This document shows, piece after piece, positions 59,840-62,800 of a stretch of DNA of 64,000 nt. Each line of letters opens with the position of its first letter. The first letter of the stretch is position 1. The position numbers were made by a program. The stretch spans positions 16,058,001-16,122,000 of the forward strand of contig NC_083287.1 in assembly GCF_963506605.1 (NCBI RefSeq), written 5' to 3'. Source of the DNA: Zootoca vivipara. Lineage: Eukaryota.

Positions 59840-62800
59840 GACCAGTAATACTTCAATTTTGCTTTGCTGTGGTTGCAATCAAGTCATTTACTCTACAGCA
59901 GGCATGTCCAACAGGTAGATCGTGATCTACCGGTAGATCACTGGACGTCTGCAGTAGATCACTGGTAGATCATTGGCTCCCTGCAAAGAAGCTGAACAAC
60001 TGTGGCTACCCTGAAAAAAGTTCAACATTTTATCACCTCCCTGAAAAAACTCAACAACTTTGACTTGACCCCCCCCCCAAAAAAACGGTCTTCCTCCTTC
60101 CTAAAAAAAAGTTCAACAACTTTGACCTGAACCCTAAAAAAGGGGGTAGATCACTGCCAGTTTTTAACTCTGTGATTAGATCGCAGTCTCTTGGGAGTTG
60201 GCCACCCCTGCTCTACAGTATAGCACTCCTATCAAAGGTACCGAAACTGTTCAGGTATAAATGGTTTGAAGATTTAGGTACAGTAATCAAATTCATTCAA
60301 ATTTATGGTCAGAGGAAAGAACAAGTTTAGAGGAATGACATTTAAAGTATGCAAAACTATTAATGCCAATGGTATATATAATGTTTAATTTGAATTGATT
60401 TATATTGCCAGATCTCTCACTTAAGAGTTGACTTCCAATGAAGTCAACAGGGCTAAAATGGAATAACTGTTTAAAATGCTGTCTCAATAAATATGCTGGC
60501 CCTGAATCTTATGCTGGCCCTGAATCAAAGACATTACGTAAGATCACTTCTGATTTTGGACAAGTTTAGGTTTGAAGAGGAAAAGTAATCTGGAGAATTG
60601 TCATGCAGTTTATACTTCAGTGCTCCAAAGCTGGCCAGAACCCCAGAAAGTTAAGCATTCTTTAGCTCAGTAAACCACAAATGGAGGCCTTTCTTCCTGT
60701 AGAGCAAGTATCTCTTTTTAAGGAAGTTCCTCGGGATCCAACCTACCATTTCCATGGCAGAGACGGGAAACTTGCATCTTTCCAAAGGTTGTTGGACTAC
60801 AGCTCCCATGATCCCTGGCCACTGGTCCTGCTGACTGGTGCTGATGGTAGATAAAGTCCAACAACATGTGGAAGGACACTGGTTTACCATCCCTGATATA
60901 GGGCTGTATACATTTACAGAAAAAGGTATCTATGAAATTAGTATTACTTTATAAAGCTTTGGGACCCAGGTGGCGCTGTGGGTTAAACCACTGAGCCTAG
61001 GGCTTGCTGATCAGAAGGTCGGCAGTTCAAATCCCTGTGACGGGGTGAGCCCCCGTTGCTTGGTCCCAGCTCCTGCCAACCTAGCAGTTCGAAAGCACGT
61101 CAAAATGCAAGTAGATAAATAGGAACCGCTACAGCGGGAAGGTAAACGGCGTTTCCATGTGCTGCTCTGGTTTGCCAGAAGCGGCTTAGTCATGCTGGCC
61201 AAAAGACATGGAAAAACTATCTGCAGAGAAACGTTGGCTCCCTTGGCCAGTAAAGTGAGATGAGTGCCACAACCCCAGAGTCATTCACAACTGGACTTAA
61301 CTTGTCAGGGGTCCTTTACCTTTACCATTTTTTCCCTCACTCTGTCGCATGCTAAGCTTAGATGTCCACCGGAATTTGAATATGCCCAAAATATAACAGA
61401 CCCCCACAATTTGTGACCTGGAAGCAATTCATGCTTTGTTGTCATAGTGGGTGCTTGATAGCTTTTGCATTTTCAGCCCCAGATCAATAAAGTTTGAAAG
61501 CCCTTGCAACAATCCACTATAACAGCTTGTGTTACTCACAATAGACTCTCCAGAATGCTCATCAATGAATTTGGAAGCTATACGCCGGCTCCCTCGGCCA
61601 ATAATGTGAGATGAGCGCGCAACCCCAGAGTCAGTCACGACTGGACCTAATGGTAAGGGGTCCCTTTAACTTTACCTTTTTATAAAGCTTTGTAAACACA
61701 TGCATAGATTAAACACTTTGGAATAGATGTGAATTTTTAAAAGTTTCGAAAGGGGTAGGAACATGCCTTTGGGCACATGCCTGAGAAAACACACAGGAGG
61801 GGAAAATATGATTGTTGATCACAGAGTTCATTCAATCAGACTGCTACTGGACCATTTTATAAGAACACAGATGTTATTGTGGCATATGGTAAATATATGT
61901 ACAACGAAAATAAAACTGTAGGTGAAATATGTATTATAATGTATGTACATATCTGTTAAAAATCTAAAAGAGACAGAGAAAAAAAGATTTGGTGCAAAGT
62001 ATTGAGATAGAACTTCACAAAATAGTAAAATATCTAGGGATATGGTTAACACCAAGAAATATAAATTTGTATAAAGACAATTATGAAAAAGTATGGTGTG
62101 AGATAAAAAGGAATCTAGAAATATGGAGTAGAATGAACCTTTCCCTATTAGGAAGAATTGCAGCGATAAAAATGAATGTGCTGCCGAAAATGCTCTTTCT
62201 TTTTCAGATAGTCCCAGTAATGGTCAAGGATGAGTGCCGCAAAAGATGGCAAAAGGATATTTCAAAATTTGTCGTGGGGGGGGGGGGGGAGGCCGAGGAT
62301 TAAACATAAGATACTTACAGATACAAAAGAAAGAGGAGGCTTCGCCCTCCCAGACCTTAAATTATATTATGAGGCTGCATGTTTGGTTTGGATTAGGGAC
62401 TGGATAAAACTGGGAAATGAAGAAGCATTAGCTTTGGAAGGACATGACAATAGATATGGATGGCATGCATACTTATGGTATGGGAAAGGGAAAGTACATA
62501 AAGGATTTTATAACCATATAATTAGGAAATCATTAATGAGAGTATGGGAAAGATATAAGGATTTAATAGAACAAAAAAAACATCTTGGTGGCTATCACCA
62601 ATAGGAACTTTGTTACTCAAACTGCTTGGCAAAAAGGGAAAGTGGCCTACAAATAGAGATCTACTGAAAGATCAAGGGGGGGATGTAATCGGTTATGTTA
62701 TTGGCAATTTGAATTGTTTAAAAAATCTTTTTCTTTAATAAAAATATTTTTAAAAATATATATGTACATATCTGAGGAAGTGAACTGTAGTCTATGATAG

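What the first reader, a model, noticed from the sequence alone, without database searches (positions are those of the whole stretch)
60961..61691. SINE-primed templated insertion: ~370 bp copied from ~38 kb away into the middle of another Sauria SINE
Seen: within one TSD pair (tttataaagcttt), the SINE switches at ~61200 to the diagnostic 3' end of the SINE at 22701-23168. It continues through ~245 bp of that SINE's unique flank (22457-22700, inverted), then resumes its own sequence at 61573 almost where it left off. The donor's 90-bp MITE is absent from the copy, so it most likely inserted after the copying. Inference: a break in the SINE was repaired by one-sided invasion of a nearby homologous SINE followed by end joining. 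An RT template switch onto RBMS3 pre-mRNA, which contains the donor in SINE-sense orientation, is an alternative.
Basis: partly seen in the sequence, partly recalled or inferred. Interest (0 to 1): 0.7.

Follow-up and report, generated by a model that had tools for sequence, protein, structure and literature searches.

The report
SINE patched with neighbour's flank
A lizard-type SINE carries about 370-400 bases copied from another SINE and its unique flank 38 kb away, a tidy natural scar of a known kind of break repair rather than a new kind of element.

Summary
One perfect 14-bp target-site duplication (60948-60961 / 61679-61692) encloses a composite. It consists of the SINE's own 5' part (to 61170, 85.2% identical to the donor), a donor-like tract (61171-61572, 97.0%; Fisher p=4.6e-7) and the SINE's own 3' part (61573-61678).

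The donor-like tract is the 3' third of the minus-strand SINE at 22701-23168 plus 244 bp of its flank (22457-22700). That flank has no third copy in the window. The left junction is in SINE register. The right junction has 1 nt of microhomology and lands where the SINE left off.

The donor's 90-bp MITE sits in an 8-bp duplication. The copy has that site once, so the MITE came later.

Best reading (about 0.65): a break in a resident SINE, invasion of the nearby related SINE by the left end, synthesis overshooting into the flank, then end joining. This outcome is known from reporter systems.

A double template switch by the reverse transcriptase at insertion (about 0.2) is not excluded. RBMS3, orthologous loci, genome-wide copy number of the flank and read support could not be checked. 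Interest is modest: a clean new example of a known kind.

The parts
60948..60961 (+). 5' copy of the 14-bp target-site duplication TTTATAAAGCTTTG (the last G may be the SINE's first base)
   Evidence: Exact string found only at 60948 and 61679 in the window
60962..61170 (+). Recipient SINE, own 5' part
   Evidence: 85.2% to the donor. 15 columns agree with the other window SINEs against the donor, 3 the other way. 84.2% and 82.6% to SINEs 16591-16942 and 28414-28770
61171..61212 (+). Switch interval: either own or donor-derived. 40 of 42 positions are identical to the donor, including a 30-bp exact run
   Evidence: Last own-type column is 61169/61170. First donor-type columns are 61173 (CpG-type change) and 61208
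61213..61326 (+). Copy of the donor SINE's 3' part, carrying the donor's extra 12-nt block and its decayed CpGs
   Evidence: Alignments. 61171-61326 is 96.2% to the donor. 1 CpG in 122 bp (obs/exp 0.15), against 6 in 112 bp (0.83) in the recipient's own homologous 3' part
61327..61572 (+). Copy of the donor's unique flank
   Evidence: 240 matches, 6 mismatches, 0 gaps to 22457-22700. No third copy in the window
61573..61678 (+). Recipient SINE, own 3' part, resuming at the SINE position where the own 5' part stops; ends ...ACTTTACCTT
   Evidence: 91.6% to 16837-16943 and 83.2% to 28678-28770. Lacks the donor's 12-nt block
61679..61692 (+). 3' copy of the target-site duplication
22457..22700 (-). 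Donor flank, downstream of the donor SINE in SINE sense. Homology to the copy stops at 22457
22701..23168 (-). Donor SINE (old, CpG-poor), interrupted by the MITE
22745..22834 (.). 90-bp MITE with a perfect 15-bp terminal inverted repeat and an 8-bp duplication GTTGCGAA (22737-22744 and 22835-22842). Absent from the copy, which has the site once
   Evidence: Three more family members with 8-bp duplications lie in the window
61413..61425 (+). 13-nt string inside the captured flank, identical to the SINE sequence spanning the breakpoint (donor 22604-22616; SINE 16831-16843). Not used at either junction; unexplained
   Evidence: 0 of 2000 shuffles of the flank reach an exact match of 13

Best explanation
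A complete Sauria-type SINE had inserted at this site and made the 14-bp duplication. Later its DNA broke near SINE position 250. The left end paired with the related, inverted SINE 38 kb away on the same chromosome and primed DNA synthesis on it. Synthesis ran through the donor SINE's last ~115-150 bases and 244 bases beyond it into unique flank. The new strand then came off and was joined to the right end of the break with 1 nt of microhomology, instead of annealing through the short (about 108 bp, about 85% similar) SINE homology on that end. The result is a SINE whose 3' third is present twice, once in donor form and once in its own form, with the donor's flank between the two. The donor was left intact and later received a MITE.

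Shown: the anatomy, the direction of copying, and the order of copying before MITE insertion. Inferred: that the template was DNA, that a plain SINE existed first, and the kind of lesion.
For: (1) The left junction is in exact SINE register and the right junction is not homologous (1 nt, T). This is the signature of invasion at one end and end joining at the other.

(2) Exit and re-entry points in the recipient SINE coincide within 0-40 bp, so nothing or almost nothing of the recipient was lost or doubled. A single break explains that without further assumption.

(3) Both own parts are of the same subtype. The 5' part is closest to SINE 16591-16943, and the 3' part is 91.6% to it and lacks the 12-nt block.

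(4) The donor lies in cis, 38 kb away. Passages read in PMC8230782 say Alu-Alu conversion falls off with distance.

(5) Direction: the composite sits inside one TSD, and the copied SINE part carries the donor's decayed CpGs (obs/exp 0.15 against 0.83 in the own 3' part).

(6) About 3% divergence between copy and donor argues against an assembly chimera.

(7) The outcome is documented experimentally. Passages read in PMC5104497 describe homologous invasion, at least 342 bp of synthesis, then joining to the second end with microhomology or 1 added nucleotide. Passages read in the review PMC7407515 state that under 150 bp of homology at the non-invading end makes second-end capture inefficient.

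(8) Pol III read-through RNA from the donor is unlikely as a template. There is a T5/T6 run at the SINE/flank boundary and two T4 runs inside the flank.
Against: No plain-SINE allele or orthologue was seen, so a pre-existing SINE is assumed.

Timing does not separate insertion from copying. By my reading of the alignments, the recipient's own parts have lost roughly 25-45% of inferred CpG sites. The copy/donor pair has lost 3 of 8 site-lineages since copying. These numbers are similar within very wide error, which also fits a composite made at insertion.

Invasion would have used a partner only 85% identical over 187 bp, which mismatch repair normally disfavours.

Differences in the copied tract are uneven: 12 in 61171-61386 and 0 in 61387-61572. 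Of the 6 in the flank, 3 lie in a T/C homopolymer run and 2 are CpG transitions, so this may be site heterogeneity, but it is not explained by the model.

The 13-nt flank/SINE identity at the breakpoint has no role in the model.
Confidence: 0.65

Rival explanations
1. Double template switch by the LINE (Bov-B-type) reverse transcriptase during the original insertion. cDNA synthesis began on the SINE RNA's 3' tail and copied about 108 nt. It jumped into a long pol II transcript containing the donor flank and donor SINE in sense. It copied about 365-400 nt, then switched back by homology to the uncopied 5' part of the SINE RNA.
For: The whole composite lies inside one TSD, and its 3'-most piece is an intact SINE tail. 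All pieces are in one orientation. Double template jumps giving tripartite TSD-flanked chimeras are reported (PMC2104539, abstract read). The CpG-loss figures read allow insertion and copying to be simultaneous. Only the uncopied 5' part of the SINE RNA would be free to pair, so re-entry upstream of the exit point is natural. Strand composition hints at minus-strand transcription, which would put the donor in sense: A>T on the plus strand, skew +0.031, z=6, 21 of 32 2-kb bins. The rule that sense strands carry T>A is recalled from the mammalian literature.
Against: It needs two switches, the first from an internal point of the SINE RNA to an internal point of an intron with 1 nt of microhomology. 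Re-entry within 40 nt or less of the exit point is not required by the model, whereas a single break forces it. A template from only 38 kb away needs special pleading (nascent RNA in cis). Pol III read-through is unlikely because of T-runs, so a pol II transcript in the right orientation is required. No gene or exon was found to show one.
Confidence: 0.2
2. A break in a resident SINE was patched by a reverse-transcribed piece of intronic RNA (a class-2 templated sequence insertion). Its SINE part annealed to the left end, and its other end was joined by end joining.
For: It gives the same junction pattern. Passages read in PMC5110952 describe breaks patched by cDNA with microhomology at the junctions.
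Against: It needs the same sense transcript as the RT rival. Such patches as described come from distant transcribed regions rather than from a partner 38 kb away. No feature of the sequence calls for RNA.
Confidence: 0.07
3. The 244 bp are not unique flank but part of a multi-copy composite repeat (a SINE plus an attached module), so both loci are ordinary copies of a family. Alternatively the structure is an assembly artefact.
For: Only 64 kb could be searched, and no squamate genome or reads were available.
Against: The other two full SINEs in the window end at the ACCTTT-type tail without this module. A family member would not carry a second, differently aged SINE 3' part after the module. 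The flank has no extended SINE similarity (best local score 13, against shuffles with mean 9.9, sd 1.2, max 15). Copy and donor differ by about 3%, and the sequence returns to its own SINE tail and matching TSD. A mis-join would not do that.
Confidence: 0.05

Closest known systems
Non-canonical termination of homologous recombination (homologous invasion, then end joining to the second end; 'coupled' HR and end joining) in mammalian reporter cells, PMC5104497
   Same: One homologous and one non-homologous junction. A few hundred bases of synthesis past the homology. Microhomology or a single nucleotide at the second junction. The donor stays intact.
   Different: Here it is a natural germline event fixed in an assembly, between dispersed 85%-similar SINEs 38 kb apart and inverted. 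The reporter work used sister chromatids or a plasmid. The break source is unknown.
Alu-Alu (SINE-SINE) non-allelic gene conversion, including partial conversions that give hybrid elements, PMC8230782
   Same: A resident SINE acquires part of a neighbouring SINE's sequence, and nearby partners are preferred.
   Different: Ordinary conversion stays inside the homology and does not change length. Here synthesis overshot into unique flank, and the SINE's 3' third ended up duplicated.
LINE reverse-transcriptase template-switch chimeras (bipartite and tripartite retro-elements), PMC2104539
   Same: Several sequence pieces in one orientation inside a single TSD, with the cognate RT template at the 3' end.
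   Different: Known chimeras fuse different transcripts end to end. Here the middle piece is intronic or flank sequence from 38 kb away, and the outer pieces are two halves of one SINE that fit together without loss.
Retrotransposon 3' transduction
   Same: Unique DNA downstream of a retroelement is moved together with the element's 3' end.
   Different: Tested and not met. The first ~210 bp of the recipient are not donor-like (85% against 97%), and the flank is followed by a second SINE 3' part rather than by a new tail.
Templated sequence insertions at double-strand breaks (TSI/TSIP class 2), PMC5110952
   Same: A break is filled with a copy of sequence from elsewhere, with the donor intact and end-joining features at a junction.
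   Different: Those patches as described have end-joining features at both junctions and come from distant, often transcribed, regions. Here one junction is homologous and the donor is close by in cis.

Membership tests
Sauria SINE (Bov-B-dependent squamate SINE) | tRNA-related 5' region with pol III boxes | tested here: inconclusive
   ARAGORN finds 0 tRNAs in the window. Rfam gives no tRNA hit in 60900-61750, only a chance 'sok' match at 22.3 bits against a gathering score of 59. The B-box-like motif GGTTCGAATCC (motif recalled) is present in the two sibling SINEs at 16653 and 28476. The recipient has AGTTCAAATCC, which differs by CpG-type changes.
Sauria SINE (Bov-B-dependent squamate SINE) | 3' end made of (ACCTTT)n-type repeats | tested here: met
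   The copies end ...CCTTTACCTTTACC or ...AACTTTACCTT. The feature is as stated in PMC13295347, section 3.3.
Sauria SINE (Bov-B-dependent squamate SINE) | 3' tail shared with the Bov-B LINE | tested here: inconclusive
   Only a 14-of-16 match between the SINE tail and the 3' end of a Bov-B-like element at about 42.83-42.87 kb. No reference Bov-B or SINE consensus was available.
Sauria SINE (Bov-B-dependent squamate SINE) | TSD whose first base is T, with TTT about 10 nt upstream (Tn-TA signature) | tested here: inconclusive
   The 14-bp perfect TSD starts with T. Only TT, not TTT, lies 9-10 nt upstream. The signature is as described in PMC13295347, sections 3.2-3.3.
HR-initiated, end-joining-terminated templated insertion (non-canonical HR termination) | One junction in homologous register, the other non-homologous with 0 to a few nt of microhomology | tested here: met
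   Left switch within 61171-61208 in SINE register. Right junction AATTT|GGAAGC with 1 shared T.
HR-initiated, end-joining-terminated templated insertion (non-canonical HR termination) | Donor retained unchanged (copy, not cut-and-paste), with copying direction donor to recipient | tested here: met
   The donor is continuous with its own flanks. The copy is nested in one TSD and carries the donor's decayed CpG state.
HR-initiated, end-joining-terminated templated insertion (non-canonical HR termination) | The recipient existed intact before the event, and the template was DNA | not testable with these tools
   No squamate genomes, reads or populations are on hand. The figures on relative timing, read from the alignments, are too imprecise to decide.
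LINE RT template-switch chimera | The whole chimera lies inside one TSD, with pieces co-oriented and the cognate RT template at the 3' end | tested here: met
LINE RT template-switch chimera | The middle piece derives from an RNA that exists in that orientation | not testable with these tools
   Pol III read-through is unlikely because of T5/T6 and T4 runs. No exon or gene was found. There is only a composition-skew hint.
3' transduction | The element upstream of the transduced flank is a copy of the source element throughout | tested here: not met
   60984-61170 is 85.2% to the donor against 97.0% for 61171-61572, p=4.6e-7.
hAT-type MITE (the 90-bp insert in the donor) | 8-bp TSD and terminal motif YARNG | tested here: inconclusive
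   8-bp duplications flank 3 of the 4 family copies in the window, and the fourth is imperfect. The termini read CATAG, which does not fit YARNG as given in the PMC3014272 passage. The superfamily is left open.

The most novel reading that the evidence does not exclude
SINE-primed flank capture is not a one-off but a recurrent route by which squamate genomes, dense in similar SINEs and with DNA transposons active at the same period, duplicate unique intronic DNA over tens of kilobases. This would be a DNA-level counterpart of transduction. In this instance the break may have come from excision of a DNA transposon: TGGAA stands on both sides of the insert, and a MITE family was mobile after the event. 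The 13-nt SINE-like string in the flank may have helped hold the second end near the donor.
Probability: 0.12. Interest if true: 0.55.

Novelty: new member of a known kind. Interest (0 to 1): 0.35.

Why it matters
It is an unusually legible natural record of a repair outcome mostly known from engineered reporters. Both junctions, the donor, the direction and the relative order of three events (donor SINE decay, copying, MITE insertion) can be read from one 64-kb window.

If such events are common, dispersed SINEs would act as primers that spread unique sequence locally. SINE-based phylogenetic markers and repeat annotation would then sometimes misread such composites. As a single case it adds an example, not a principle.

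Tried and rejected
ARAGORN on the window and Rfam on 60900-61750 did not recognise the SINE head. The only Rfam match (sok, 22.3 bits against 59) is chance.

A two-segment likelihood change-point scan picked 61387 rather than the SINE-internal switch. I rely on the diagnostic columns and the segment counts instead.

I compared CpG loss in the recipient's own parts (about 25-45% of inferred sites) with loss in the copied tract (3 of 8 site-lineages), by my own reading of the alignments. The numbers are too small, and without a reference consensus this is inconclusive for insertion-then-repair against a one-step origin.

The idea of a hidden old SINE in the flank, to explain the 13-mer, was rejected. 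The best local alignment scores 13, against shuffles with mean 9.9 and max 15, and the two short matches are not collinear.

I tried models in which the 13-mer mediates a switch. None reproduces the observed order of pieces.

Host gene: six short RRM-type motifs recalled from memory were scanned in six frames, and none lay in a convincing context. Pfam was run on 150 of the 434 minus-strand ORFs of 40 aa or more (those in 1-22.8 kb). It gave no RRM, only a reverse-transcriptase fragment at 6152-6358 and weak chance hits. The remaining 284 minus-strand and all 413 plus-strand ORFs were not scanned. A whole-frame Pfam scan was not accepted.

3' transduction, segmental duplication and mis-assembly were rejected on the anatomy.

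Orthologues, copy number of the flank and read support therefore stayed unchecked.

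Full report
**What is there**

- 61284-61572 matches 22744-22457 on the opposite strand at 96.9% over 289 bp.
- 60984-61291 matches 23145-22835 at 89.4% over 311 bp.
- 61572-61677 matches the 3' end of another SINE (16837-16943) at 91.6% over 107 bp.
- 60961-61326 matches two full SINEs (16591-16942 at 84.2%; 28414-28770 at 82.6%).

The window holds four full copies of this SINE and the one extra 3' fragment.

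The composite is bracketed by a perfect 14-bp direct repeat, TTTATAAAGCTTTG, at 60948-60961 and 61679-61692. This string occurs nowhere else in the window.

**Where the sequence changes allegiance**

The alignment used the donor with its MITE and one copy of the MITE's duplication taken out.
- 60984-61170: 161 matches, 26 mismatches, 2 gap events (85.2%).
- 61171-61572: 390 matches, 11 mismatches, 1 gap event (97.0%). Fisher p=4.6e-7.

I took columns where the donor differs from both other SINEs. Up to 61170 the recipient follows the other SINEs at 15 columns and the donor at 3. Those 3 columns (61147, 61149, 61157) are ones where the two comparison SINEs themselves vary, or are CpG-type. From 61173 to 61289 the recipient follows the donor at 15 columns. 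Four apparent exceptions at 61292-61296 are misalignment at the MITE edge. After realignment only 61294 remains, and it is best read as a later change in the donor.

The switch therefore lies between 61171 and 61208. Within 61171-61212 the two sequences are 40 of 42 identical, so the exact point cannot be fixed.

One result runs against a tidy two-state picture. A two-segment likelihood scan peaks at 61387, because 61387-61572 has no difference at all while 61171-61386 has 12. Of the 6 differences in the flank, 3 lie in a T/C homopolymer run at the SINE/flank boundary and 2 are CpG transitions. The distal 186 bp contain no CpG by inspection. I take this as site heterogeneity, but it is not proven.

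**The junctions**

In SINE sense the donor reads ...CATCAATGAATTT|CAGTCTACAC. The recipient reads ...CATCAATGAATTT|GGAAGCTATACGCC. GGAAGCT... is the SINE sequence that follows ...GACCT in the sibling SINEs. The right junction thus has at most 1 nt (T) of shared sequence.

The recipient's own sequence resumes at the very SINE position at which, at the latest, it was left (TGGAA, 61209-61213). Between 0 and about 40 bp of the recipient were replaced, and none was lost or doubled apart from a possible TGGAA.

The outcome is a SINE whose 3' third is present twice.
- The donor-type copy (61213-61326) has the donor's 12-nt extra block and 1 CpG in 122 bp (obs/exp 0.15).
- The own-type copy (61573-61678) lacks that block and has 6 CpG in 112 bp (obs/exp 0.83).

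The two are separated by 246 bp of the donor's flank.

**Direction and order of events**

The composite is nested inside one TSD, and the copied SINE part carries the donor's already decayed state. At the donor the flank runs on into unrelated sequence past 22457 with no junction features. Copying therefore went from 22.5-22.9 kb to 61.2-61.6 kb.

The donor carries a 90-bp element (22745-22834) with a perfect 15-bp terminal inverted repeat. It is flanked by an 8-bp duplication, GTTGCGAA. The copy has that 8-mer once (as TTCACAAC in sense, with one CpG-type change) and no insert.

Three more members of the same family lie in the window at 11319-11546, 26658-26911 and 53257-53535. They have the same termini and 8-bp duplications, the last one imperfect. 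The element is therefore a real MITE that inserted after the copying.

Its termini (CATAG) do not fit the hAT motif YARNG quoted in PMC3014272 (passage read), so I leave the superfamily open.

**Is the flank unique?**

Within the window, yes. A permissive search (word size 7, E up to 10) finds only the donor and the copy. All other hits are 41 bp or shorter with E of 2.1 or more. The two other full SINEs stop at their ACCTTT-type tails without this sequence.

A lenient local alignment of SINE against 500 bp of donor flank scores 13, against shuffles with mean 9.9, sd 1.2 and max 15. No eroded SINE is hidden there.

**What kind of SINE?**

PMC13295347 (Results section read) describes Sauria SINEs. 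They end in (ACCTTT)n, share their 3' end with Bov-B LINEs, and make TSDs that start with T, with TTT about 10 nt upstream.
- The ACCTTT-type end and the T-initial TSD are met here.
- Upstream there is only TT.
- The SINE tail matches the 3' end of a Bov-B-like element in the window at 14 of 16 positions. Bov-B-like 3' ends occur at 42496-42866, 45214-45586 and 17377-17584.
- ARAGORN and Rfam do not recognise the tRNA-like head.
- A B-box-like motif is intact in two sibling copies.

A comparison with a reference consensus was not possible.

**Mechanism**

The combination of a homologous left junction and a non-homologous right junction means the event was primed by SINE-SINE pairing and finished without homology. 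So do the coincident exit and re-entry points, the intact donor and the partner in cis at 38 kb.

The simplest account has four steps.
1. A break occurs in a resident SINE.
2. The left end invades the neighbouring SINE.
3. Synthesis runs past the end of the homology.
4. The strand is displaced and end-joined to the second end.

This outcome is documented in mammalian reporter cells as non-canonical termination of homologous recombination. One reported product had at least 342 bp of synthesis on an ectopic homologous template, then joining to the second end with one added nucleotide (PMC5104497, passages read).

A review notes that under 150 bp of homology at the non-invading end makes second-end capture inefficient (PMC7407515, passages read). 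Here that end offered about 108 bp at about 85%.

SINE-SINE conversion between neighbours, often partial, is well known for Alu (PMC8230782, passages read).

The inverted orientation of the donor matters. A crossover would have inverted 38 kb, whereas the non-crossover copy leaves the chromosome otherwise unchanged.

**The main rival**

The main rival is a double template switch by the reverse transcriptase at the time of insertion. Such tripartite, TSD-flanked chimeras exist (PMC2104539, abstract read). The model also accounts for re-entry upstream of the exit point, since only the uncopied 5' part of the SINE RNA is free to pair. The crude CpG-loss figures I read from the alignments do not separate insertion from copying.

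Several points count against it.
- It needs two switches, the first between internal points of two RNAs with 1 nt of microhomology.
- It does not require the near-coincidence of exit and re-entry.
- It needs a template from 38 kb away.
- It needs a pol II transcript in SINE sense. Pol III read-through from the donor SINE would meet a T5/T6 run at the SINE/flank boundary and two T4 runs.

I could not confirm such a transcript. No RBMS3-like exon was found by motif scan. Pfam on 150 of 434 minus-strand ORFs also found none; the remaining minus-strand ORFs and all 413 plus-strand ORFs were not scanned.

The plus strand has A>T (skew +0.031, z=6; 21 of 32 2-kb bins). By the mammalian rule, which I recall rather than tested, this hints at minus-strand transcription.

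I put the DNA-templated repair at about 0.65, the RT switch at about 0.2, a cDNA patch at a break at about 0.07, and a repeat-family or assembly explanation at about 0.05.

**Unexplained**

The captured flank contains GTGACCTGGAAGC (61413-61425; donor 22604-22616). This is identical to the SINE sequence spanning the breakpoint (16831-16843). None of 2000 shuffles of the flank gives an exact match that long. Neither junction uses it, and no switch model built on it gives the observed order of pieces. It may be coincidence, or it may have helped keep the second end near the donor.

**Verdict**

It is a clean natural example of a known repair outcome between dispersed SINEs, not a new kind of element or process.

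The tests that would decide between DNA and RNA templates could not be run here. These are orthologous or polymorphic alleles, genome-wide copy number of the flank, long reads and transcript orientation.

Noticed in passing
window 11319-11546, 26658-26911, 53257-53535 (and 22745-22834): A MITE family with termini CATAGCTGCCAAG.../CATACCTGCCAAG... and 8-bp target duplications (AATGCAAG, GAGGTAGG, roughly CCCAAAAT). Members are 90 to about 280 bp long. The termini do not fit the hAT YARNG motif.
   Followed up: partly
window 61413-61425; 22604-22616 (-); 16831-16843: A 13-nt exact identity between the captured flank and the SINE sequence that spans the breakpoint. 0 of 2000 shuffles reach it. 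It is not used at either junction.
   Followed up: partly
window 42496-42866 (+), 45214-45586 (+), 17377-17584 (-); 6152-6358 (-): Bov-B-like LINE 3' ends. One has an ORF tail ...GKIEGTRRRGRQRTRWLD... ending in ACGACTAAACAACAAAA, and two copies are 94.6% alike. There is also a reverse-transcriptase fragment (Pfam RVT_1, E=5.3e-6) at 6152-6358.
   Followed up: partly
window 47700-48700: A GC-richer stretch (0.518 in 48001-49000, against 0.42 overall) with long open frames on both strands. It could be a CpG island or promoter. No gene was identified.
   Followed up: no
window 24026-24154 and 17603-17731: The most similar repeat pair in the window (97.7% over 129 bp). It was not classified.
   Followed up: no
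window 3447-3625: A 179-bp stretch that matches its own reverse complement at 93.9%. This is a long palindrome or hairpin-type element, with related pieces at 9294-9387.
   Followed up: no
window 63061 (-): A further B-box-like motif on the minus strand, outside the four Sauria-type SINEs. It may belong to another tRNA-derived element.
   Followed up: no
whole window: A>T on the plus strand (skew +0.031, z=6) with near-zero GC skew (-0.007). This may be a transcription-associated asymmetry pointing to a minus-strand gene.
   Followed up: partly
window 61387-61572 versus 61171-61386: Differences between copy and donor are uneven: 0 in the distal 186 bp and 12 in the proximal 216 bp. They are largely at CpG and homopolymer sites.
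   Followed up: partly
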